From a virus (taxonomy: Duplodnaviria; Caudoviricetes): a stretch of DNA of 64,000 nucleotides. Below, piece after piece: positions 6,685 to 63,747 of the stretch (position 1 is the stretch's first letter; every line of letters starts with the position of its first letter). The position numbers and the translations under genes are program-made. The notes beneath the pieces were generated by a model that saw only the letters and a list, made by a program, of their open reading frames with translations, was not told where the DNA came from and ran no database searches. The stretch covers positions 2,073 to 66,072 of the IMG/VR virus record IMGVR_UViG_3300012158_000002. The stretch is one strand, 5' to 3'.

Positions 6685-6793
6685 TTTAACAACCCTTCCC
6701 TCCTGTGTATTTTTAGCATTGATGCTGTATAGATAAATAATACCATATTCTGACAATATTACAAGAAGAATTTATGATTTATCTTATGTTTGA

Positions 6794-14173: not shown

Positions 14174-14608
14174 TTAACGAACTTTTTCTACAACTACTTC
14201 AACATTGCTGAAAACAGCTCCAACTCCGGTATCAACGAATGTCAAGGATACGGAAGTTCCGCAACTAAAGCAAGCAGGTGTAACACAAACGGTTGTCGCA
14301 AATGCCATATTGACTATATCCGTAATAGCTGTACTATCCTCTGTAGCTTCGGCGCCGGGCTGAAGCACTCCATTTACAAAAAGCTGAACAGTAATATCTC
14401 CGGCTGTGCCGCTTTCTGCTGCATCACCATTAAAATGTACCTTATAAAGACCAGGGCAGTTTAAACTGATAGAACTTGAGCCAGCAGAATGTTTTATTGC
14501 ACGGCCAACCCTTGCTCTATTAGTATTAAATGCAAGTGGAGAGCCGGTAATAATTGTTTGATCTGTATTTGTATAAGTATCCAAAATACTTGCATAATCG
14601 TTAGACAT
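14174..14608 (-). CDS. BclA C-terminal-like (C1q/TNF-like beta-sandwich) protein
   Basis: PLAFNTN...SISLNCPGLYKVHFN...VQLFVNGVLQPGA pattern; AGGAGG RBS. Confidence 0.7.
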   Translation of the reverse strand: MSNDYASILDTYTNTDQTIITGSPLAFNTNRARVGRAIKHSAGSSSISLNCPGLYKVHFNGDAAESGTAGDITVQLFVNGVLQPGAEATEDSTAITDIVNMAFATTVCVTPACFSCGTSVSLTFVDTGVGAVFSNVEVVVEKVR

Positions 14609-17683: not shown

Positions 17684-18427
17684 TCATGCTGCTATCAAAC
17701 ATTTTACGGTTATCGGACCACAGACATTATCTATTTTTATTTTACATGATGCCTGGAATTTACCCAACGCCGCTTTGGTTTTAACCCCAAATTTACCATC
17801 GATAGCAATGTCATAACCAGCTTCTACCAATTCCCATTGTAGCCATTTTACAGATTCTCTTATCTCTTTAACACGAGATGTATCATAATAAAGCAGTTCA
17901 GTTGGCACATTATAGGGATTTGCTGTTTTCCATGTACCATAAACTTTGTTTTCATAGGTATAATCAATATCAGAGAATGTCAATCCATGCGTCCACTTTG
18001 TTGCAGATACTTTGGTCATTTTTGTTCCGTGATCAATGCCTTTCGCTTCGTAACACATAGGTACACCGTCAATAATTCCTGCATAGATTCCTACATGACC
18101 AGACTTCCATAGCACAACGCCAACAGCAAAATCTTTTATGTTGGAAATCGGCAGTCTTGTATAAGCTTTCTGATACAATTGTGCGGAGCCTATGTTAATG
18201 CCGCGATAACCGGATATTAGACCGGAGCAATCGGTGTTTGTTTTTCCTACCTGTCCTTTGTTTCTTGCCTTTTTCATATATGCAGTGGTTACGGTTGATG
18301 GATACATGCTATGCATTACCTGCATTTTGTTTTCTGTAAGCAAGCCATCTGTAATTTTCGCTCCATAAAAATATGGAGTTCCTATCTTGCTTTTTCCATA
18401 ATCCGCTAATCCATTTCCTGTTAACAT
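17684..18427 (-). CDS. Endolysin: NlpC/P60-like catalytic domain plus peptidoglycan-binding domain
   Basis: TDCSGLI and GHVGIY catalytic Cys/His; C-term VKWLQWEL...IDGKFG..T..AL..FQ. Confidence 0.85.
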   Translation of the reverse strand: MLTGNGLADYGKSKIGTPYFYGAKITDGLLTENKMQVMHSMYPSTVTTAYMKKARNKGQVGKTNTDCSGLISGYRGINIGSAQLYQKAYTRLPISNIKDFAVGVVLWKSGHVGIYAGIIDGVPMCYEAKGIDHGTKMTKVSATKWTHGLTFSDIDYTYENKVYGTWKTANPYNVPTELLYYDTSRVKEIRESVKWLQWELVEAGYDIAIDGKFGVKTKAALGKFQASCKIKIDNVCGPITVKCLIAA

Positions 18428-18428
18428 A

Positions 18429-18638
18429 TTATTCCTCCTTTTTTGTTTGTACAGCCAATTCCGGCAGTCCTGCAGCTGACGTTAATAGAGATAATAGACC
18501 GGATAACAATGATGCAGACAATAACATTACCCAATTAACATCATTGAGTACAACCGATGTCCCAATTGCGGCAAGTGCCGTTTGCGCTACTGTTTTTATT
18601 GCCCTGATTCCGGCAGCCCTTAACCATTCTTTACTCAT
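18429..18638 (-). CDS. Holin (phage r1t holin-like)
   Basis: WLRAAGIRAIKTVAQTALAAIG...SLLTSAAGLPE. Confidence 0.88.
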   Translation of the reverse strand: MSKEWLRAAGIRAIKTVAQTALAAIGTSVVLNDVNWVMLLSASLLSGLLSLLTSAAGLPELAVQTKKEE

Positions 18639-18667
18639 TTTATTTTATTTCCTTTCTTTTTATATTC

Positions 18668-18701
18668 AAAAACCAGGTGACTGAAATGGGATTACCTGGT
18701 T
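18668..18701 (-). terminator. Hairpin downstream of the invertible tail segment
   Basis: AACCAGGT/ACCTGGTT stem followed by a T-run on the minus strand. Confidence 0.55.
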
Positions 18702-18763
18702 CTTGGCTCAATATTATATTTAATTCTCAAATACATTCACATTTTTCTCACCTTCTTTCCTTC

Positions 18764-18779
18764 AATAAACAGCAGTTTA
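18764..18779 (+). repeat. Left inverted repeat (putative crossover site) AATAAACAGCAGTTTA
   Basis: Exact reverse complement of 19307-19322; palindromic arms TAAAC/GTTTA around an asymmetric AGCA core. Confidence 0.9.
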
Positions 18780-19109
18780 AATTTACATTTACCCCGTTAT
18801 ATTATATCTAAAACAAATGTATCGGTTGGTTCAGCAGTAGGTGCTAACGTCAGAGGACTATGTGGATTACTAATTATAGGTGTAATAACCGGAGGAAGCA
18901 GCGTTTATAGAGTATTTTTTATATCAGGACAAAATCAATATGATACTCAGTTTAACATAATTAGCACTAACTCATATGGAGGTGGCGAGGGGATTCTTCC
19001 TGTTTACGCAAACCCTAACAATATGGACTTTTCTATTGTTAATAATGGTACCAGTCAAGCTACTGCATGGGCTTATTTCATGGGTTTAGATATATTTCAG
19101 CAAGATTAA
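18765..19109 (+). other. Silent alternative C-terminal cassette (114 codons, no start codon or RBS) of the small tail protein
   Basis: Open from the repeat: INSSLNLHLPRYIISKTNVSVGSAVGANVRGLCGLLIIG...WAYFMGLDIFQQD*; same frame relative to the repeat as the expressed cassette. Confidence 0.8.
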
Positions 19110-19117
19110 TAGCTATT

Positions 19118-19477
19118 TTACTTGATTTGAATATATATTTTACGACTACCATCATCAATAGTGATAAACAGTCCAGTTGCATCAATTCCGATCGTGTGTA
19201 TAGAATTAAGCGTTGATGGATCTACACTAAGTTTATTAGCGCTTAGTGATGAGACTGCATTATTGAGGTATGTAATAGCTACCCCAGTATTACTAATATT
19301 AGCATCTAAACTGCTGTTTATTTGCTTAATTTCCGCTGCGGTACCTAATGGGACTGGTAAATTATCTTTGTCTCCAAATGCTGGCACTCCATTGTTCGCT
19401 ACCGCTAAATCTCCATATTCTAATGTAGCAGGATATGTAGGTGTTGCAGTTGTACTTGTTTGTCTTTTTAATTTCAT
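19118..19477 (-). CDS. Small tail fibre/receptor-binding protein with invertible C-terminus
   Basis: N-term MKLKRQ...P..LEYGDLAV tail-fibre N-domain motif; the repeat encodes QINSSL from codon 52. Confidence 0.7.
   Translation of the reverse strand: MKLKRQTSTTATPTYPATLEYGDLAVANNGVPAFGDKDNLPVPLGTAAEIKQINSSLDANISNTGVAITYLNNAVSSLSANKLSVDPSTLNSIHTIGIDATGLFITIDDGSRKIYIQIK
19307..19322 (-). repeat. Right inverted repeat TAAACTGCTGTTTATT inside the tail gene
   Basis: Exact inverted copy of 18764-18779. Confidence 0.9.
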
Positions 19478-19479
19478 AG

Positions 19480-19695
19480 TTAATATGCCTCCATTTTCAA
19501 ATCTACTATTGGCGTGTTGTTTTCAATAATCAATAAACTGTTTACCTCTTTTGCACCAAAAGGAGTCCCATCTTGCAATATTTCATTTACTTGAACAAGA
19601 CGGATATTTGTTTCAACAATTGTTCCGTTTTCCCGTACAATATTATATCTAGGCTGTCCGTCACCGCCTAAGATTCTATCAAGATATTTAGCCAA
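19480..19695 (-). CDS. Small tail-associated protein
   Basis: RYNIV.ENG...QDGTPFGAKEVN motif seen in tail-tip proteins. Confidence 0.65.
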   Translation of the reverse strand: MAKYLDRILGGDGQPRYNIVRENGTIVETNIRLVQVNEILQDGTPFGAKEVNSLLIIENNTPIVDLKMEAY

Positions 19696-20086
19696 AAAAA
19701 TCTCCTCCTAACTCAAATGATAAAATTGATCTGTTTGAATACTGAGAATTTAGAATATAGTAATATAACAAGGTGGTCCTTTCTATTCGGTTTACATCCT
19801 CATTATTCCATGTCGTATTATTTTCAAAAAATTCCTTTGTGACTTCAAAATTATTTGCACGAAAAGTATTGTTTGCTAATAATTCCAAATTTTCTTCAAT
19901 TACATTAAAAACCTTAGCATAAAACAATGATCTTATATTTATTTCATCAATATTGGGATATTTCCATTTTTCATTTATTGAAAATGCTAACTCAATAAGA
20001 TATATGATATTGTTTTTTATTCTGTTGTACTCTGCATATTCAAAAAAATCTGTTGAATTCCAATCTGTTTTTGCATATGTCCACAT
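19688..20086 (-). CDS. Tail/baseplate-associated hypothetical protein
   Basis: KTDW..DFF..EYNRIKNNI and DVNRIE motifs; located in the tail operon. Confidence 0.7.
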   Translation of the reverse strand: MWTYAKTDWNSTDFFEYAEYNRIKNNIIYLIELAFSINEKWKYPNIDEINIRSLFYAKVFNVIEENLELLANNTFRANNFEVTKEFFENNTTWNNEDVNRIERTTLLYYYILNSQYSNRSILSFELGGDFFG

Positions 20087-20087
20087 T

Positions 20088-22016
20088 TTAATACCCCGTA
20101 TAATTTAGTTCATCGGCAGAAGCAGCTTTTCCGGTTGAATTTCCGGTTCCACCATTTGCAATAGGTAATATACCCGTAATACCAGGACGAGGACTTGCCG
20201 CTAAAGGACTTGCTGCTGTTGTTGAAGCTAAATTTATGAGCATGGATGGAGCAGTCGACAAACCGGTACCGCCATTTGCGATGGCGACTATTCCGGTTAC
20301 ATTTCCTGCTGTGCCTGATACATTTGTCGGTGTGGCCGGCAATATCATGTTTCGTGCAACTATAGCCGTCACTCTGCCTTTTACATCCACGGTTATGTAC
20401 GGAACTATAATAGTTCCACCAAATCCTAACGTTGCGGCTGCTGTCGGTCCATAACTGCCAGCCGTTGCGCCGGATGTCGCTAAAGTCAAAATAGCTGACA
20501 CATCCTTACTACCATCTACGGACAATGAAGCAGTACCATCCCCTGTAAGAGATAATTTCCGTTCGGAATACCATTTAGATGCACTTGTTACATTTCCTGC
20601 CACAGTTGCGTTAATTTGCGCTTGCAGTTTTCCTATTGCGATAAGCAAAGAATCAGCAGCAGTAACAGCATTATTTTCAGTAGCTGCTGTTGATAATCCA
20701 GTTAATAAGGCAGCTCTTACAGATGTCGCAAAATCAGTCCATGCTTTTAACCCATTCCAATATTGGCTTGATGTACCCTTTGATATGACTGGTTCTTTTC
20801 CTGATAATAATATAGCAATGTCGTCTTTTGTATAAATATTTGATAAATCGACTTTTTCAGTTTCGAGTATTTGCTTTTGTGTTCCGTCCCACCAGTAATC
20901 TGGTACGCCCAATTCTATGATAAATAAATTGTCGCCAGTTCGTAATTGTGCTGTATTGGATGAAATTGCCAACCAGACATTTAAGGCTATTAATGTATCA
21001 AAAACAAATGCCCGGCTTGCTCCTCTTGCAATTGCCTCCACTTCGGAAACTTTTTCATTTATAACTAATATTTTTCCATCAATTTGTATTGCGGTATATG
21101 AATCAGTGATACCCATCCCTGAAAGAGTACTTGGATTACTTCCGGAAGTTACCCTACCTTTTGTATCCACTGTTGTTTTGGTATATGTTCCGGCAGTCAC
21201 ACCACTGTTAGTCAATGTCAGATTTATATTTGTAATTTCAGAACCATCAAAACTCCCCGTTCCCGATGCATCTCCAATAAGATTAAGAAGCATTTTTGAA
21301 AGCCATTTGCTTGATGTTCCTGCATTTCCCGTGATCGATGTCTGTGCTGGATGAATATGACCTTCGTTTGCATATTTTCCATTATCCAACCCGGCGGCAC
21401 CTTCGCCAGAGACGATTGGTATCGCGGAGCTTGACATTGAATGTCCATAATCTGATCGGGAACTAATGCCATATCTATTGTCCGCACTGGCGTGTGATTT
21501 AGGAGCGGCTCCTGCTTGCTCTGCTGTGACAGAATGCGGATTTGATATATTTGCAATATGAGAATTTACATTTGCTCTAAGGGAGCGGATTGCATTTGTA
21601 ATTTTATTAATTATTGCCGTCAGAATTCCGGTATATGTCGCATTATCGGATTCCGGATCATTTATAGTTCTGTTTCCAATTTTGGAATCTGTAACCGCAT
21701 CATTTGCAATTTTTTCTGTTGTTACGCCCAAATTGGCTAATTTTCCAGTAGTAACTGCCAATTCCATGATTTTTGATGTAGTTATATTGGAATCTCTTAT
21801 TTTATCAGTTGTTACGCTTGCATCTGGATGATCTAATTCTAATGCGACTATATGCGACCGGATTAATGTTTCAAGCTCCGTATCTCTTAATAGCGAATTC
21901 TCGTCTATGGTGAATACAATACTATCAATATTATCCATATTTACGTTAACATCATTTATATCCGCAGCACCATCATATGATGGCTTGCGAAGCTGAAAAT
22001 GAAATGTATAATCCAT
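20088..22016 (-). CDS. Tail fibre protein
   Basis: Thr/Ala/Gly-rich; duplicated GNA.TS.KW...L.GD.SG...DGS....TL..SG.TAG.Y...VD.KGRVT repeats; IANGGTG motifs. Confidence 0.85.
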   Translation of the reverse strand: MDYTFHFQLRKPSYDGAADINDVNVNMDNIDSIVFTIDENSLLRDTELETLIRSHIVALELDHPDASVTTDKIRDSNITTSKIMELAVTTGKLANLGVTTEKIANDAVTDSKIGNRTINDPESDNATYTGILTAIINKITNAIRSLRANVNSHIANISNPHSVTAEQAGAAPKSHASADNRYGISSRSDYGHSMSSSAIPIVSGEGAAGLDNGKYANEGHIHPAQTSITGNAGTSSKWLSKMLLNLIGDASGTGSFDGSEITNINLTLTNSGVTAGTYTKTTVDTKGRVTSGSNPSTLSGMGITDSYTAIQIDGKILVINEKVSEVEAIARGASRAFVFDTLIALNVWLAISSNTAQLRTGDNLFIIELGVPDYWWDGTQKQILETEKVDLSNIYTKDDIAILLSGKEPVISKGTSSQYWNGLKAWTDFATSVRAALLTGLSTAATENNAVTAADSLLIAIGKLQAQINATVAGNVTSASKWYSERKLSLTGDGTASLSVDGSKDVSAILTLATSGATAGSYGPTAAATLGFGGTIIVPYITVDVKGRVTAIVARNMILPATPTNVSGTAGNVTGIVAIANGGTGLSTAPSMLINLASTTAASPLAASPRPGITGILPIANGGTGNSTGKAASADELNYTGY

Positions 22017-23696: not shown

Positions 23697-24090
23697 TAAT
23701 GTTTACCTGCGCATTTTCCAGATATTCTGGCCTTAATGAATTCTGATCAACATTAACTGGTTCGCATTGGGGATTGCTCGCATAAAATCTTTTTCTTTGC
23801 AAGCGTCCCAAATTATAGTTAAAATATTCAACGCTAAAAAACATTCCATGGGATTCAAGGAAATTATTAAATTCCCACCACTTCTCGGGTTCTATACGAG
23901 ACCATCCCATATTCTGCTTATCAAGGCTTCTTCCAACTTGTTGACCAACCACAACTCCATTAACATTTCTGGCAGCATCTACTAAGCGTTCTGTTTGAAA
24001 CATTGCCTTTCCCCTTGTCGGAAAAGGCAATGTATAAATCAGATTATCAAATGATGAACCATATCTTATAAATCCGTCATTAGTACGCAT
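23680..24090 (-). CDS. Distal tail protein (Dit-like)
   Basis: Size and position directly after the tape measure gene. Confidence 0.6.
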   Translation of the reverse strand: MRTNDGFIRYGSSFDNLIYTLPFPTRGKAMFQTERLVDAARNVNGVVVGQQVGRSLDKQNMGWSRIEPEKWWEFNNFLESHGMFFSVEYFNYNLGRLQRKRFYASNPQCEPVNVDQNSLRPEYLENAQVNIIDTGE

Positions 24091-27000
24091 TTATAAATCC
24101 ACCTCCTGTTGTCTGTATTCCCTTATTTTGTTGCCATGATTCTATACTACTTCCAACTTCACGACCATCAAGATATATTGCAGGACTTGAATTTCTTATT
24201 GCGTCAGCCAATGAAGCAATCAATTGATTTGTTTCTCTTATTAGGTTATTCGTTTCATCAGAATTAATCCTTTGTACTACTTTATCAGCCAACGCATCCT
24301 GCCATTGCGTATTTCTATCAAGAGGAAGAACAGCTTCCCTACCTCTTTCTCCGATCATTGCAATAGTTGCCTGATCTACAATGCCGCCGGTTGCAAGTTT
24401 CGGAATTGATATTTGTCCAAGCTCTGAAAGACTGAATCCAAACGATTTACCACCTAATCCCGGCACCCATTCTGGAATACTGAAATGTAATCTATTTAAT
24501 GCTCTTACCATTCCGTTGATTCCATTGATTACACCATTAACCATGCTTTCTATTCCACCAAGAATACTATTTATAACTTTTTTGATAACACTCCAAATAT
24601 TATTAAATACATTTTTTGTTGTATCGCTCAATCCATTCCAAATATTATTCCATACCGTTTTTATTCCATTTAATACCGCGGTAATACTAGATTTTATTGT
24701 ATTAATTGTTGTAGATATTAAATTCTTGATGTAATCCCATATATTCGTAACGGTTGTTTTTATGGCTGTCCAAATTGTGTTCCAAACAGTTTGAATAATT
24801 TCAATAGCCGTTGTTATTACTAATTTCACTCGTTCAATTTGTTCAGAAATAAATGCTTTAATGCTTTCCCATATTTCAAGTGCTTTCTCTTTGATGACAT
24901 CCCAGTTCTTATATAACAGGATTCCTATTGCTATCAATGCGGCTATAGCTGCTGTTATTAATACAAGCGGTAAGTTTATAGCATTTACAGCAATAGCTAA
25001 AATCCCACCGGCTGCAGCTGCTGCTAACTGAACAGTTTCCATTATCGCAGTCACTATATTATAGGCTTGAAGAGCAGTAGTAACTAAACCTATTGCTATT
25101 GCTATTCCTTCAATAATGGCCATTGCTATTTCATTATCGGCAATCCATCTAAGCGCATCACCAATAGCGCTTAATATATCGACAATCAACCCTCCTGTCC
25201 ATTCTGCAATTGGAACAAGAATTTTATTCCAAAACCATTGAAAAATAGGTTTTATGTCTTCAATTGTTGTATTTAGAAAATCAATGGCTCCCGATAATAT
25301 ATCAAGAAATGAAGGAATTACATCATTAATTGTCCATGTTCCCAATGGAACCAAGACATTGTTCCAAAACCATAGAAGTCCTTCGCCGATATTTATTGCA
25401 AAAGGCAAAAGTAATTTCCATAATCTGTCTAAAGATGTATTTAATTTATTCCAATCTATTCCTGATACTAATTTTGTAATTCCGTCTATAAAATTTGGGA
25501 ATCCTTTTCCAATAACCCATGTTCCGAGAGGAACCAATACGTTTTCCCATAATCTTAAAAGACCTTCTCCTACATTAATGGCGAAAGGTGCAAGCGCGTT
25601 CCATAATTCGTGTAGAGAATCATTTATTTTCTGCCAATCTATAGCAGCAAGACCTTTTGTGATAGCATCAATAAAACGTGGTAATCCTTCTCCCAGTGTC
25701 CATAAGCCAACAGGCTTTAAAAAAGAATTATAAAAATCTTTTAATGCATCCCATGCAAAACTCCCAACTATTTTTAATTGCTCCCATAATAATTTTAATG
25801 AATCAATTACAGGTTGTAATAATTGCTTTATTTTTTCTATCCATTCTGCGAATTGATCTAATATAGACATATCCAAATCACTTGTATCAATATCAAATGA
25901 TGGTGCGATTTCAGCACCTGCGGCAGCACCAGCAGTATTCTCTGAAATTACACTTAATTCATCTATGCTTGATGATGCATTTTCAGCAGCCTTACCAGCT
26001 GCACTAGTGGCCTTGGCTTGGTTATACATAGCCTTTGCGGCATCTTGGGATTGTTTAATGCTTTTTCCAAAAACAACATTAACAAATGATGCAACATATG
26101 CTGTAATTTTTGCTAATGCAGACATTAGCGCATTAATAGCAGGCAATACAGCATTATAGATTGGCTGAAATGCTGTAAGTAAATTCCCTTTTATCTGTGC
26201 TAATGAATTTACAAATTGATCATTTTGTTTTAGTGCTGACATTAACCCCTGTTGAAGCTGCCGTAACCCTCGTCTAATAATATTAAAAACAAAAACTGCA
26301 ACCACTAAATTTTTGATTCTATTTGCTAATTTTTCAAATCCAGAAGTAGAATTTTTTGTTTCTTTATTTAATAATTTCATTGAACCAATCATACTCAAAA
26401 CAGACACGCCTATTTTTTTAAATCCATCCTTAATCTTATTTAAAAATGTCGTTAAATTTATTGAGCTTTTTTCAATATTTATTAATTCAGCATCAACTTG
26501 ACTTATTTCCTCTGTTTTGAATGCTTCACTCATCTCTGCCGATAATGTTCTTGCACTTTTTGAAGTATCATCAAGCATGAAAGCAATACCACTAATTTGC
26601 GCTTGTAAATTATAAGCTTCATTTGTATTTTGAGGATTTAATGTTATATCTTCAAATGCAACTTTAAGTTTTTCAGATTCAAAATATAAATTTTTTATTT
26701 TAGAATCTATCTTTTCAATATCCTTTTCAGTTCTGTCCATAGTCGCCTGAGCTAAACTTTCGGCTAAAGCATCACCACTTTCTTTTGCTGAATTTAATTC
26801 AGTTTTGGTTTGTTCATAAAGTGTATTTAATGTCTGATATTCATTTTGCTGTTTCTGAATTTCAGATGTAATATTCTCTGTTTTAGTATATATATCCTGT
26901 ATTGTCTGACCAAAAGGAGTCGATAGTTTTAATAGTTCATTTTGTAATTCAATGGCTCTATCTTTGCTCATATCAAGCGCAAGACTTCCTTGTTCGATTT

Positions 27001-27517
27001 TATTAGTTAAATCAGAGAAGTCTTGACTCGTAGTTGGGTCAAGTTGTATTTCTTTTATTCTTTCTTTTATAACTTTAGCCGAATCATCTATCTTTTTTAA
27101 TTCATCATCAACTGGACGTAATTTCTCAGCTAGTCTATCTGCTTCCGCTACAGCAGGAGCAATTTGTTCCTCAGAAAGACCAATGCTTCTTTGTGATTCC
27201 GCAAGTTCAACAGCTTTTTCATATTGAATAATAAGATCTTTATTCGCAGCTTCAACGGCTCTTGTTTCTTTTTCAGCATTCTTAAGCTGTTTTTCAAGCT
27301 CTATAATTTCTTGTGGCTTTTCACCTTTTGCTATAGACTGTAATTTGCTTCGTAAATTTTCTAATTCTGCGTTTTGTTGCTTTATTTTTTCCGCTTGTTT
27401 TTCAAAATTCGTAGTAAGCCGGTCAATTTCTTTGGCGGTCTGAGATAAACCCTTATTAATGCCCTTATTGTCCACAAGGGTTTTTATATTAATCGCGCCA
27501 TCATATCTGTCAGCCAT
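24080..27517 (-). CDS. Tape measure protein
   Basis: 1145 aa; coiled-coil N-half; Trp-periodic repeats; C-term IPKLATGGIV and GERGREAVLPL motifs. Confidence 0.92.
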   Translation of the reverse strand: MADRYDGAINIKTLVDNKGINKGLSQTAKEIDRLTTNFEKQAEKIKQQNAELENLRSKLQSIAKGEKPQEIIELEKQLKNAEKETRAVEAANKDLIIQYEKAVELAESQRSIGLSEEQIAPAVAEADRLAEKLRPVDDELKKIDDSAKVIKERIKEIQLDPTTSQDFSDLTNKIEQGSLALDMSKDRAIELQNELLKLSTPFGQTIQDIYTKTENITSEIQKQQNEYQTLNTLYEQTKTELNSAKESGDALAESLAQATMDRTEKDIEKIDSKIKNLYFESEKLKVAFEDITLNPQNTNEAYNLQAQISGIAFMLDDTSKSARTLSAEMSEAFKTEEISQVDAELINIEKSSINLTTFLNKIKDGFKKIGVSVLSMIGSMKLLNKETKNSTSGFEKLANRIKNLVVAVFVFNIIRRGLRQLQQGLMSALKQNDQFVNSLAQIKGNLLTAFQPIYNAVLPAINALMSALAKITAYVASFVNVVFGKSIKQSQDAAKAMYNQAKATSAAGKAAENASSSIDELSVISENTAGAAAGAEIAPSFDIDTSDLDMSILDQFAEWIEKIKQLLQPVIDSLKLLWEQLKIVGSFAWDALKDFYNSFLKPVGLWTLGEGLPRFIDAITKGLAAIDWQKINDSLHELWNALAPFAINVGEGLLRLWENVLVPLGTWVIGKGFPNFIDGITKLVSGIDWNKLNTSLDRLWKLLLPFAINIGEGLLWFWNNVLVPLGTWTINDVIPSFLDILSGAIDFLNTTIEDIKPIFQWFWNKILVPIAEWTGGLIVDILSAIGDALRWIADNEIAMAIIEGIAIAIGLVTTALQAYNIVTAIMETVQLAAAAAGGILAIAVNAINLPLVLITAAIAALIAIGILLYKNWDVIKEKALEIWESIKAFISEQIERVKLVITTAIEIIQTVWNTIWTAIKTTVTNIWDYIKNLISTTINTIKSSITAVLNGIKTVWNNIWNGLSDTTKNVFNNIWSVIKKVINSILGGIESMVNGVINGINGMVRALNRLHFSIPEWVPGLGGKSFGFSLSELGQISIPKLATGGIVDQATIAMIGERGREAVLPLDRNTQWQDALADKVVQRINSDETNNLIRETNQLIASLADAIRNSSPAIYLDGREVGSSIESWQQNKGIQTTGGGFINAY

Positions 27518-48288: not shown

Positions 48289-48708
48289 TTAATTATTCAT
48301 GTTTTTAATAATAATATTTTCTATTGCCGTCAACCTTCTTCTGGATATTCTATCGCGACACAAGCCAATTCTTTCCGATATTTCCTTGTCTTGTAATCCA
48401 TCTATATATTTCATTTCTAAGATTAAAATATCCGTCTGGTCTGTTAACGAGTGAATAGCATCTTTTATTTCTTCAAGTTTTTTAAAGCATTCTTCTCGAT
48501 CAGTTTCATATTCGTCAAGCTTTGCGGCATATAAGGATAAATCTTTTACATCACATCCTTTTCCGGTTCCTCCCGATGGAGACGATGGACTCATTTCTTT
48601 AGTTCGTAACTTTTCGATTTCCTCATCAAGCCTTTTAATCCTTTTGATGATTGATTTGTAATTATTTAAAAATTCTTTTTTACTTTCAAAATCCACATTA
48701 TCTGTCAT
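48289..48708 (-). CDS. Late transcriptional regulator (ArpU/DUF1492-like)
   Basis: KEFLNNY...ILEMKYIDG...EISERIG sigma region-4-like HTH. Confidence 0.75.
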   Translation of the reverse strand: MTDNVDFESKKEFLNNYKSIIKRIKRLDEEIEKLRTKEMSPSSPSGGTGKGCDVKDLSLYAAKLDEYETDREECFKKLEEIKDAIHSLTDQTDILILEMKYIDGLQDKEISERIGLCRDRISRRRLTAIENIIIKNMNN

Positions 48709-49718
48709 ATAGCGGCTACTCTCCTTCTGAAAATATCATATACATGTTCCTCGCCTTTGTACGCATAATGTCGTCCTGCGGTATTACTCTCTGCATGTCC
48801 TAAGTATTCTCCGGCCTCTTCCGTGCTGCCTCCGCGCTTGATTATATTTGTTGCTGTGGTCTTTCTGATTAAGTGGGGATATACATTAATATCCATACCT
48901 GCTCGGCGCGCAATGGCCTTAATCGCGCTGTATATGCCACATCGTTGTAATGGATTTATAGAGCCGTTGCTGATAAATAGAGGTTCCTTACTTGATTGTG
49001 TTATTCCTCTTTCTTGCAAGTATCTGTTAAGATAATCTCTGGCAACGCGGTCTATACATACTGTCCTATATCGATCAGATTTTTGACCAAATATTATGAT
49101 CTTTCCATCACTCCAATCAACATCACATACACGGACCGCCGGTACCTCGCCGTCTCTCATAGCTGTACAGCGTAAAAATTCTAACAACGCCCGGTCCTTG
49201 GTTTTATTGCAGCCTGTCTTGAGTTGCTCCCATTGCTCGGCTTCTAAGTGCTCGATCTGCTTAACCGACTCTTTGTAATTATCAATGTTTTCAACCGGAT
49301 TTTTGATTATTAAATCCTCCCTTCTCATCCATGTGAAAAATGCAGATAAGCACCGTTTGCAATTATTAACGCTCACATTACTATTTCCACGTTTTTTGTA
49401 TTGATAAAGATAACGCTCAACATCATCCTTTTTTATTAATATCAGAGGTTTCGAAATCATATCTATTAAATTATTAATATGTATAATGTATTGATCTACT
49501 GTATTCTCAGACAATTTTGGAGCCTTTTTAACCATAAACAGTTGGATAATATATTCATTTGTATTATCAATTGTTGCAAGGCTTGTTTTCTCCTCTATCA
49601 TGTCTATGCCATACATTACTTGTGCCATTATTCCCGATAAAATAGATATCGTCTGTGATGTTACATGTACTCTCATTGCAACTAATACATCATTAATTAC
49701 TCTGTCCTTAATCGTCAT
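48705..49718 (-). CDS. Second tyrosine recombinase (XerD-like with SAM-like N-domain)
   Basis: TAMRDGE (R), GQK, PHLIRK (HxxR), YLGH and HYA (Y). Confidence 0.9.
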   Translation of the reverse strand: MTIKDRVINDVLVAMRVHVTSQTISILSGIMAQVMYGIDMIEEKTSLATIDNTNEYIIQLFMVKKAPKLSENTVDQYIIHINNLIDMISKPLILIKKDDVERYLYQYKKRGNSNVSVNNCKRCLSAFFTWMRREDLIIKNPVENIDNYKESVKQIEHLEAEQWEQLKTGCNKTKDRALLEFLRCTAMRDGEVPAVRVCDVDWSDGKIIIFGQKSDRYRTVCIDRVARDYLNRYLQERGITQSSKEPLFISNGSINPLQRCGIYSAIKAIARRAGMDINVYPHLIRKTTATNIIKRGGSTEEAGEYLGHAESNTAGRHYAYKGEEHVYDIFRRRVAAI

Positions 49719-62652: not shown

Positions 62653-63747
62653 ATGGCAACAACAAAATACAAAAAAGGAAAAGACGGATATTTTCAAGCC
62701 AAAGTTTGGGACGGGACTTATGTCAATGACGAAAAACACCGCATAACCCTGAGAACAAAAAAAAGCAGCAGAGAACTGGAAAACATGGTCAATGAGCATA
62801 ATCGGAAGATTGCGGACCGGGAATATATCCGGATGATTGACATTACATTTCTTGATTATGCACGTAAGTGGAAAGATGTTTATAAAGCAAATAAATCTAA
62901 AAACACGCAAGCCATGTATTATAATGTAATTGAAAAACATTTATATGTCGTAACTTGTCAGATGAACGCGATTAATCGGATGGATTATCAGATGCTGCTT
63001 AATTCGATCCCTGGGGACCGGACCAGGCAGCAAGTGAGCATGACATTTAAGCAGATTATAAAAAGCGCGATAAAAGATAAGTTGCTGCCTGCAAATGTTT
63101 ATAATGAGATTTTTGACGATACCGAAACAATTCATTATCGGGCGCCTGAAAAGAGAGCATTGACAGAAACAGAAAAAAAGGCTACCTTTGACGCTGATCT
63201 GGATCCCCCGGATAAAGTTTTTCTATATATACTGTATGGCTGCGGCCTACGCCGGGGAGAAGCATTGGCCCTATCGCGGTTTAACATATCAATAGACCGC
63301 CGAGAATTGACCGTAGGCGGCTCTGTCGCATTTGATGGTAACAATCCCTACCTCAAAGGCACAAAGACGAGAAATGGAGAGCGTACGGTCCCAATACCAG
63401 AGATGATCTTGCCTGCCCTGGAAAGCTATCTTGCTACATTAAAGGGTACCTTGTTATTTCCGTCAAGAAGCAATGATTATCTCAGCAAATCATCCTATGA
63501 CAAGAAATGGGCCAGAATTATCAAAGGGATGGAAAAGGCATCCGGTGAAACATTTGACACCCTGACGGCTCACATATACCGACACAACTATTGCGCAAAC
63601 CTCTGTTACAAGATTCCAGAGATCAGTATTAATATGATTGCGCAGCTTCTTGGAGACAATGAAAGGATGGTAATTGATGTATATAATCACTGCATAGCGC
63701 ACAAAGAAAAGCCACATGATGTTGTTGCCGATGCCCTGGCGTTATGA
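62653..63747 (+). CDS. int: Prophage integrase (tyrosine recombinase)
   Basis: GLRRGE, KT, HIYRH and VYNH catalytic residues; N-term arm-binding-like region; adjacent to the tRNA. Confidence 0.93.
   Translation: MATTKYKKGKDGYFQAKVWDGTYVNDEKHRITLRTKKSSRELENMVNEHNRKIADREYIRMIDITFLDYARKWKDVYKANKSKNTQAMYYNVIEKHLYVVTCQMNAINRMDYQMLLNSIPGDRTRQQVSMTFKQIIKSAIKDKLLPANVYNEIFDDTETIHYRAPEKRALTETEKKATFDADLDPPDKVFLYILYGCGLRRGEALALSRFNISIDRRELTVGGSVAFDGNNPYLKGTKTRNGERTVPIPEMILPALESYLATLKGTLLFPSRSNDYLSKSSYDKKWARIIKGMEKASGETFDTLTAHIYRHNYCANLCYKIPEISINMIAQLLGDNERMVIDVYNHCIAHKEKPHDVVADALAL

What the first reader, a model, noticed from the sequence alone, without database searches (positions are those of the whole stretch)
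18764..19322. Hidden two-state invertible segment switching the C-terminus of a tail protein
Seen: a perfect 16-bp inverted repeat (AATAAACAGCAGTTTA at 18764; reverse complement at 19307) with palindromic arms TAAAC/GTTTA around an asymmetric 4-nt core. One copy lies inside the 119-aa tail gene, encoding QINSSL from codon 52. The other opens a start-less 114-codon, beta-strand-rich frame on the opposite strand in exactly the same register. The two cassettes end tail-to-tail, 8 bp apart (19109/19118). Inversion would give a 166-aa protein with a different tip. Established: invertible tail-fibre segments (Mu G, P1 C) switch host range. Inference: this is a receptor-switching system. No invertase lies next to it; only an RBS followed by ATG-TGA remains beyond the left repeat, so it is either driven in trans or locked.
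Basis: partly seen in the sequence, partly recalled or inferred. Interest (0 to 1): 0.85.

Follow-up and report, generated by a model that had tools for sequence, protein, structure and literature searches.

The report
Invertible phage tail-tip switch, no adjacent invertase
A temperate phage from an anaerobic gut-type enrichment keeps a spare, backwards-facing end-piece for a small tail protein and can swap it in by flipping 559 bp of DNA between two short sites; this kind of host-recognition switch is already known, and its main oddity is that no flipping enzyme is encoded beside it.

Summary
There is a perfect 16-bp inverted repeat (18764-18779 / 19307-19322). One copy lies in the 119-aa gene at codons 52-57. 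The other opens a start-less 114-codon frame in the same register. The two stops lie 8 bp apart, and flipping would give a 166-aa product.

Seven different cassette pairs sit between the same two sites in near-identical phages from sister metagenomes. One pair occurs in both orientations: L016 against L017, 99.7% identical over 650 bp, reverse-complemented exactly between the sites. A homologue of the window's silent cassette is fused to the constant N-domain in L018, with dN/dS 0.27.

No serine recombinase is in the 66-kb phage record. Two tyrosine recombinases are present. The Xer-like one (48705-49718) is the full-length homologue of a recombinase that sits beside a four-cassette tail-fibre shufflon in another prophage (L031). 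That shufflon shares the site arms (TAAA-6 bp-TTTA), the flank and a cassette family with this switch.

Flipping of this very copy was not seen, because only contigs were available. Receptor binding is inferred.

This is a new member of a known kind (Mu G; the Rin shufflon and the recombinase-less inversion of Bifidobacterium prophages). This scan has noted similar switches on other DNA.

The parts
18764..19322 (.). Invertible segment (559 bp), both sites included
   Evidence: Homology to relatives with other cassettes stops exactly at 18779-18782 and resumes at 19307.
18764..18779 (+). Left recombination site, heading the silent cassette; shared core is positions 1-12 (AATAAACAGCAG)
19307..19322 (-). 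Right recombination site, inside the expressed gene (codons 52-57, QINSSL)
19323..19477 (-). Constant N-terminal part of the tail protein (about 51 codons), with its own RBS and ATG
   Evidence: 98-100% identical in proteins with unrelated C-termini. Distant homologues of this N-domain open small proteins in tail modules next to XkdX, Mtd_N and endolysin genes.
19118..19306 (-). Cassette A, the variable C-terminus expressed in this orientation (62 codons after the site, plus stop)
18765..19109 (+). Cassette B, the silent start-less alternative C-terminus (114 codons plus stop), in register with the site
   Evidence: 58% identical to the expressed cassette of L018, dN/dS 0.27.
18640..18763 (-). 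Conserved flank between the switch and the holin gene, holding the relic RBS-ATG-TGA (18737-18755)
   Evidence: 89-92% conserved even where the lysis genes differ. The same CACCTTCTTTC flank precedes a site of the L031 shufflon.
48705..49718 (-). Xer-like tyrosine recombinase, 337 aa; best candidate for the invertase acting in trans
   Evidence: Full-length homologue (26% identity, E 2e-38, catalytic R-K-HxxR-H-Y aligned) of the recombinase beside the L031 shufflon.
62653..63747 (+). Second tyrosine recombinase, 364 aa, the likely integrase; a weaker candidate
   Evidence: No significant similarity to the L031 shufflon recombinase.
19480..22016 (-). Upstream tail genes (642-aa tail fibre, then 132-aa and 71-aa proteins); context
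17684..18638 (-). Holin (r1t type) and endolysin just downstream; context

Best explanation
This is a two-state, site-specific DNA inversion switch in the last small tail (receptor-binding-type) gene of a temperate siphovirus-like phage.

The gene has a constant 5' part (about 51 codons, with the only RBS and start), followed by a 16-bp site. A second copy of the site lies inverted 527 bp downstream. It opens a start-less alternative C-terminal cassette on the other strand, in the same reading register. Recombination between the two sites flips 18764-19322. The constant part is then joined to cassette B (166-aa protein) instead of cassette A (119 aa), and A becomes the silent copy.

Strand exchange lies within the first 12 bp (AATAAACAGCAG). 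The site has the look of a tyrosine-recombinase core: 5-bp imperfect inverted arms xTAAA / TTTAx around a 6-bp spacer.

The enzyme is not encoded beside the switch. It is most likely a Xer-like tyrosine recombinase acting in trans. The phage's own 337-aa protein at 48705-49718 is the first candidate, with about even odds. The other candidates are a recombinase of a co-resident shufflon-bearing prophage or of the host.

The same two sites also mark the boundaries at which whole cassette pairs differ between otherwise near-identical phages. They probably serve cassette exchange between genomes as well.

Shown: the anatomy, the conservation, both orientations in relatives, and purifying selection on the silent cassette. 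Inferred: flipping of this very copy, the identity of the enzyme, and that the variable domain binds the host receptor.
For: (1) Anatomy as described.

(2) All eight independent relatives have the same layout: constant N-part, site, variable C-terminus, then an inverted start-less frame of 96-120 codons that opens with the site in register, just before the lysis genes. In all there are 14 cassettes in 7 pairs. They show no mutual similarity except between the window's B and the L018 cassette.

(3) L016 and L017 carry the same pair in opposite orientation. L016 2656-3305 matches L017 930-281 at 99.7%, between collinear flanks, and the breakpoints overlap by exactly the 16-bp sites. The contigs come from different samples and from assemblers whose k exceeds 16.

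(4) A T/G difference at site position 13 travels with the cassette in that pair, and the flanks stay put. Exchange therefore lies within positions 1-12.

(5) Partner sites differ only at positions 1, 13 and 14. The G/A change at position 12 is present in both arms in L002 and in L004.

(6) Silent cassette B against the expressed L018 homologue: 58% aa identity, dN/dS 0.27.

(7) The 66-kb record has no Resolvase-family match and two Phage_integrase matches.

(8) L031, a PBSX-like prophage from a sister assembly, has four copies of a site TAAAC-ACCGA-TTTA. It also has one expressed and three silent tail-fibre cassettes and a Xer-like recombinase directly beside them. Its cassette P0018 is 55% identical to cassette D' of this family, and its silent-site flank shares CACCTTCTTTC with the window's. 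Its recombinase aligns end to end with the window's 337-aa protein (E 2e-38) but not with the window's integrase (E 3).
Against: The window's own segment was seen in one orientation only. The one source run and a short relative (L001) both show A expressed and B silent. Only contigs could be laid, and contigs drop minority forms.

L016 and L017 are not the same phage flipped. Their downstream lysis modules differ. The opposite orientation could therefore have arisen when the segment moved between genomes, rather than by flipping in place.

The 337-aa recombinase is only 26% identical to the shufflon enzyme. Its homologues sit in the same early-gene position in phages where I saw no clear switch: phiCs5676-1, L032 and L033. 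It may therefore have another main task.

No family, PDB-sequence or fold evidence ties any cassette to a known receptor-binding domain.
Confidence: 0.85

Rival explanations
1. Locked relic. The family once switched, but in this phage the segment no longer flips, for instance because the enzyme is absent from this phage and host. Cassette B would then be a fossil.
For: Only one orientation was seen for the A/B pair, in the window and in L001. No recombinase is adjacent. The neighbouring gene has decayed to RBS-ATG-TGA.
Against: The sites are perfect 16/16. Cassette B is fully open (chance 1e-4) and has evolved under purifying selection relative to an expressed homologue. Two intact tyrosine recombinases are in the record.
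Confidence: 0.12
2. Exchange module rather than phase switch. The two sites serve mainly to swap whole cassette pairs between co-infecting phages, by recombinase-mediated or homology-driven cassette exchange that can insert in either orientation. Programmed flipping within one genome would then be rare or absent.
For: Seven different pairs sit in backbones that are 94-99% identical, with homology breaking exactly at the sites. The one pair seen in both orientations sits in two backbones with different lysis modules. Cassette, site-arm and flank homology extends to an unrelated myovirus-like prophage.
Against: Exchange alone does not explain why every phage keeps a second, start-less, in-frame cassette under selection. 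A silent cassette is useful only if it is expressed at times, which needs inversion. An enzyme that can exchange between two genomes at inverted sites will also invert within one.
Confidence: 0.1
3. A serine (Hin/Gin-type) invertase supplied by the host or another element flips the segment, as in Mu, P1 and e14.
For: The site contains TAAAC-N4-GTTT, which recalls the inner part of gix/hix sites (from my own knowledge, not tested). The central GC lies within the mapped exchange region.
Against: No Resolvase-family gene is in the 66-kb record, which is 86% complete. The outer half-site motif of Hin-family sites is absent, and the cassette-side flank varies freely. The related system with an adjacent enzyme (L031) uses a tyrosine recombinase.
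Confidence: 0.07
4. Chance inverted repeat beside a spurious open frame.
For: The DNA is AT-rich and the repeats are short.
Against: Searches give chance levels of 1e-2 to 1e-4 for each feature alone. The layout recurs in eight relatives with unrelated cassette sequences.
Confidence: 0.01

Closest known systems
Second inversion locus of the tRNA-Met-integrated Bifidobacterium prophages 689b-1 / Bb423phi2 (Mavrich et al. 2018, PMC6109161)
   Same: [quoted passage not shown] The two segments are dissimilar, no recombinase flanks the locus, and a trans-acting invertase is proposed.
   Different: Different host phylum (Actinobacteria there; here a phage with Firmicutes-type genes). The site sequence differs. 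Homology of the proteins could not be tested. Here many cassette pairs, a candidate enzyme and a sister system with an adjacent enzyme are known.
Rin shufflon of Bifidobacterium breve/longum prophages (PMC6109161)
   Same: A constant RBP N-terminus is joined to alternative start-less C-terminal cassettes at short in-frame sites (11 bp rix there). The enzyme is a tyrosine recombinase without an arm-binding domain. The cassettes are very dissimilar to each other. The L031 relative found here is of this type.
   Different: In the window there are only two cassettes and one site pair, and the recombinase gene is not beside them. The candidate lies 30 kb away.
G segment of phage Mu and its relatives (P1 C/Cin, e14 P/Pin, p15B Min)
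   Same: Inversion between sites, one of which lies inside the tail-fibre gene, exchanges the C-terminal receptor-binding part. This is a two-state host-range switch (established knowledge).
   Different: Those use an adjacent serine invertase, 26-bp sites, an enhancer and Fis, and they carry fibre-assembly chaperone genes inside the segment. None of these is present here.
R64 shufflon (Rci / sfx), which switches the PilV C-terminus
   Same: Tyrosine-recombinase logic. The sites are asymmetric: one arm plus the spacer is conserved and the other arm is tolerant. In-frame C-terminal swapping (my own knowledge of sfx; asymmetry here).
   Different: That system is a plasmid pilus adhesin, not a phage tail protein. 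It has seven sites and an adjacent rci gene, and there is no sequence relation.

Membership tests
Gene-altering programmed inversion of a phage tail-fibre/RBP gene (general kind) | Inverted repeats bracket a segment, with one repeat inside the coding sequence | tested here: met
Gene-altering programmed inversion of a phage tail-fibre/RBP gene (general kind) | Alternative C-terminal coding cassette on the opposite strand, start-less and in frame at the crossover | tested here: met
   The same holds in eight relatives.
Gene-altering programmed inversion of a phage tail-fibre/RBP gene (general kind) | Both orientations occur in nature | tested here: met
   Met for the family: L016 against L017, 99.7% identical, inverted exactly between the sites. 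Not seen for the window's own A/B pair, where only contigs could be laid.
Gene-altering programmed inversion of a phage tail-fibre/RBP gene (general kind) | The target is a tail fibre or receptor-binding protein | tested here: inconclusive
   Position: last gene of the tail module, after the tape measure and a 642-aa tail fibre and before the holin. N-domain homologues lie in tail modules. No family, PDB or fold match for the cassettes.
Gin/Cin/Pin/Min serine-invertase systems | Adjacent serine (Resolvase-family) invertase gene | tested here: not met
   None among the neighbours. No PF00239 match in the 66-kb record.
Gin/Cin/Pin/Min serine-invertase systems | 26-bp gix/hix-type sites and a tail-fibre assembly gene inside the segment | tested here: not met
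   Only 12-16 bp are shared, and the cassette-side flank varies freely. The segment holds the two cassettes only.
Rin-type tyrosine-recombinase tail shufflon | Constant N-part joined to variable cassettes at a short in-frame site | tested here: met
Rin-type tyrosine-recombinase tail shufflon | Tyrosine invertase gene beside the cassettes | tested here: not met
   Not in the window: the nearest tyrosine recombinase is 29 kb away. Met in the related system L031.
Rin-type tyrosine-recombinase tail shufflon | Three or more cassettes with multiple sites | tested here: not met
   Two sites and two cassettes only.
Recombinase-less two-cassette inversion (bifidophage 689b-1 / Bb423phi2 type) | About 0.5-kb segment with one reverse cassette plus the 3' end of the neighbouring gene, a short site, and no flanking recombinase | tested here: met
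   compared with the description in PMC6109161.
Recombinase-less two-cassette inversion (bifidophage 689b-1 / Bb423phi2 type) | Sequence homology of proteins or sites to the bifidophage locus | not tested
The site sequences differ (CAGGGTTA there).

The most novel reading that the evidence does not exclude
The short xTAAA-6 bp-TTTAx sites, with their conserved flank, may be portable docking points recognised by one clade of phage Xer-like recombinases. Unrelated phages in one gut community (a siphovirus-like phage here, a PBSX/myovirus-like prophage in L031) would then flip their own tail tips and also trade whole tip cassettes with each other. A phage without an adjacent enzyme would be switched in trans by its own early-region recombinase or by that of a co-resident prophage. 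The result would be a communal, recombinase-serviced pool of receptor-binding domains.
Probability: 0.3. Interest if true: 0.65.

Novelty: new member of a known kind. Interest (0 to 1): 0.45.

Why it matters
Tail-tip switches set which bacteria a phage can attack. Most textbook cases are serine-invertase systems of enterobacterial phages. This locus adds a clean case from an uncultured phage with Firmicutes-type genes, in which the enzyme is unlinked. The same tiny sites also bound a striking diversity of tips: 14 cassettes in near-identical phages from one set of enrichment cultures. It gives a defined substrate (a 12-bp core) and a short list of candidate enzymes for testing trans-acting inversion, which has only been conjectured for phages (PMC6109161). 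For annotation, it shows that start-less reverse frames between the last tail gene and the holin should not be dismissed or mis-called. One database entry, P0001, is such a mis-call.

Tried and rejected
- **Laying public runs.** Only Logan contigs were served. The source run shows one orientation in a single contig. Other runs show flanks with different cassettes, and contigs that end near the sites. I considered reading those contig ends as a sign of mixed orientations under k=31, but the end positions do not fit the prediction and depth is low, so I draw nothing from them.
- **Structure prediction.** The L018 fused protein as a single sequence gave pLDDT 33.7. The 119-aa protein with a 5-row alignment gave pLDDT 50.5. 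Both are too poor for a fold search, so none was run.
- **Family and similarity searches on the cassettes and N-domain.** Pfam, PHROGs and PDB-sequence searches found nothing. The ESM Atlas gave only unnamed viral clusters at scores of 0.91 or less.
- **Cultured phages.** There is no DNA match. The best protein match of the recombinase is 37.5% (phiCs5676-1), too distant to test site co-occurrence.
- **L019.** This was a spurious tblastn hit with no gene.
- **Nucleotide conservation of the site against its surroundings (window against L004).** The site is among the best-conserved 16-mers but not uniquely so, which is not decisive.
- **Promoter and terminator scan.** It stayed at background.
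- **Relatives of the L031 recombinase in IMG/VR (L032, L033).** They showed no convincing repeats or cassettes nearby.

Full report
**What is there.** The window is most of a 66-kb IMG/VR phage record. Its tail and lysis genes lie on the minus strand. In order they are a tape measure (24080-27517), a 559-aa protein, a 642-aa tail fibre, 132-aa and 71-aa proteins, the 119-aa gene in question (19118-19477), then an r1t-type holin and an endolysin.

It has no other copy in the window at up to 2 mismatches. Its 12-nt core has no other exact copy in the whole record. No perfect inverted repeat of this length arose in 300 Markov resamples of the surrounding 3 kb.

One copy encodes I-N-S-S-L at residues 53-57 of the 119-aa protein. 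The other opens, in the same register on the other strand, a 114-codon frame with no usable start. That frame is open by chance about once in 10,000 composition shuffles, while the other five frames of the stretch carry 8-14 stops. The two stops are 8 bp apart. A simulated inversion gives a 166-aa protein and leaves cassette A as the new silent copy.

**Relatives.** Searching with the 119-aa protein returned proteins of 164-248 aa. Their first 57 residues are 98-100% identical to the window's, and their remainders are unrelated to it and to each other. The divergence begins exactly at the site.

Their contigs, plus six metagenome loci, all show the same design: constant part, site, expressed cassette, then an inverted start-less cassette of 96-120 codons that opens with the site in register, and then a conserved 140-bp flank before the lysis genes. 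I count 14 cassettes in 7 pairs. BLASTP finds no similarity between families apart from the window's B and the L018 cassette.

Homology between the window and relatives with other pairs stops at 18779-18782 and resumes at 19307. One public contig replaces the 527 bp between the sites with 618 other bases.

**Proof that the segment inverts.** L016 (Ga0153950) expresses cassette D and keeps D' silent. L017 (Ga0153942) expresses D' and keeps D silent. At the DNA level L016 2656-3305 equals the reverse complement of L017 281-930 at 99.7%. The flanks are collinear, and the matches overlap by exactly the two 16-bp sites.

A 16-bp repeat is shorter than the assemblers' k-mers, and the two contigs come from different samples, so misassembly is unlikely. 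In this pair the sites differ at position 13 (T or G). That base stays with its cassette while the outer flanks stay in place, so exchange occurs within positions 1-12.

Across all loci, partner sites differ only at positions 1, 13 and 14. The G-to-A change at position 12 is found in both arms in L002 and in the diverged L004. This is the pattern expected if positions up to 12 include a spacer that must match between partners.

One caveat applies. L016 and L017 have different lysis modules downstream. The flip may therefore have happened during transfer of the segment between phages rather than in place.

**The silent cassette is a maintained gene part.** L018 expresses, fused to the constant N-domain, a cassette 58% identical to the window's silent B. 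Between the two, dN/dS is 0.27 with dS about 1.1. A database protein, P0001, is a mis-called ORF that runs from the flank into silent B, on a short contig with the same orientation as the window.

**Is it a tail or receptor-binding protein?** The support is position, together with the N-domain. A profile of the N-domain finds small and large proteins whose genes lie in tail modules beside XkdX, Mtd_N-like and endolysin genes. One of them, of 441 aa, has a near-threshold endosialidase-chaperone match. The cassettes themselves match no Pfam, PHROG or PDB sequence, and two AlphaFold runs were of low confidence. Receptor binding is therefore an inference from analogy.

**The enzyme.** None of the twenty neighbouring products is a recombinase. 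The record has no Resolvase-family match and two Phage_integrase matches. One is a 364-aa integrase at the right end. The other is a 337-aa Xer-like protein at 48705-49718, beside a late regulator and a methyltransferase.

A lead came from cassette D'. Its 55%-identical homologue P0018 lies in L031, a PBSX/myovirus-like prophage from a sister assembly. L031 has four copies of a 20-30-bp repeat:
- one inside the XkdV_N tail-fibre gene;
- one inverted 0.5 kb downstream, opening a start-less cassette;
- two more, also in opposite orientations, around a cassette pair that directly abuts a 331-aa Xer-like recombinase gene, downstream of the lysis genes.

Its site core, TAAAC-ACCGA-TTTA (peptide L-N-T-D-L), aligns with the window's TAAAC-AGCAG-TTTA (I-N-S-S-L). 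The arms are the same and the spacer differs. The flank before its silent site shares CACCTTCTTTC with the window's.

The L031 recombinase aligns over its whole length with the window's 337-aa protein (26% identity, E 2e-38), with the catalytic Arg, Lys, His-x-x-Arg, His and Tyr in register. It shows no significant similarity to the window's integrase. This makes a tyrosine recombinase of this clade the likely enzyme and the 337-aa protein the first candidate.

Two points count against that assignment. The identity is modest. Homologues of the 337-aa protein also occupy the same early-region position in phiCs5676-1, L032 and L033, where I saw no clear switch. A recombinase from a co-resident L031-type prophage or from the host remains possible.

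The RBS-ATG-TGA relic beyond the left site corresponds to the start of a 101-aa phrog_1233 gene in L004, not to an invertase.

**Comparison with what is known.** The logic is that of Mu G and P1 C. The serine invertase, long sites and chaperone genes of those systems are absent.

Mavrich et al. 2018 (PMC6109161) described the Rin shufflon of Bifidobacterium prophages, which has a tyrosine invertase beside several RBP C-terminal cassettes and 11-bp sites. They also described a second, simpler locus: a 500-bp inversion at an 8-bp site with no flanking recombinase, for which they proposed a trans-acting invertase. The window's switch matches that second description, and L031 matches the first.

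Milman et al. 2023 (PMC9881135) list tail-fibre genes among the families enriched for predicted programmed inversions, and confirmed several prophage tail-fibre inversions with long reads.

This scan has itself noted many tyrosine-recombinase tail-tip shufflons in gut phages. It has also noted a few recombinase-less two-cassette switches on other DNA. I did not check those notes, and they are not evidence here.

**Verdict.** This is a new member of a known kind of host-range switch. Three features make it interesting: the unlinked enzyme, the very short defined core, and the evidence that the same sites bound cassette exchange between unrelated phages. Still open are direct proof that this copy flips, the identity of the enzyme, and what the tips bind.

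Noticed in passing
L031:6233-10708: Four-cassette tail-fibre shufflon in a PBSX/myovirus-like prophage. The crossover peptide is S-L-N-T-D-L. The sites lie at 6787, 7320 (inverted), 10024 and 10654 (inverted). Two cassettes and a 331-aa Xer-like recombinase sit beyond the lysis genes, at the prophage end next to host sugar-metabolism genes.
   Followed up: partly
L014:786-1376 (internal site-like sequence at 1062-1077): An unusually long expressed cassette (196 codons) contains a degenerate direct copy of the site (2 mismatches, peptide E-I-S-S-L). It looks like two cassettes fused.
   Followed up: no
window 18737-18755, and L004:1355-1660: The conserved RBS-ATG-TGA just beyond the left site is the decayed start of a gene that is intact (101 aa, phrog_1233, unknown function) in the diverged relative L004.
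   Followed up: partly
L017:1026-2170, and likewise L014 and L018, against window 17684-18638: Phages with near-identical tail genes and the same switch flank carry a different lysis module (another holin plus a 286-aa amidase-type endolysin). The mosaic joint lies right after the conserved flank.
   Followed up: no
L020 / L023 (Clostridium phage phiCs5676-1, OR574845.1): This cultured C. scindens phage has a 37.5% homologue of the 337-aa recombinase in the same early-region context, plus a separate integrase. It also has a reverse 104-aa ORF and an IS200-like transposase directly after its last tail gene. Only a weak 16-nt (88%) inverted repeat was seen there.
   Followed up: partly
window 19101-19124: Imperfect palindrome spanning the 8-bp gap between the two convergent stop codons. 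Its role is unknown.
   Followed up: no
window 14174-14608: A stand-alone 144-aa protein has a sub-threshold BclA C-terminal (C1q-like) match. It lies in a cluster of unknown genes behind the lysis genes.
   Followed up: no
L001:135-602 (protein P0001): A public gene call that starts in the non-coding flank and reads into the silent cassette. It shows how such cassettes get mis-annotated as stand-alone genes.
   Followed up: yes
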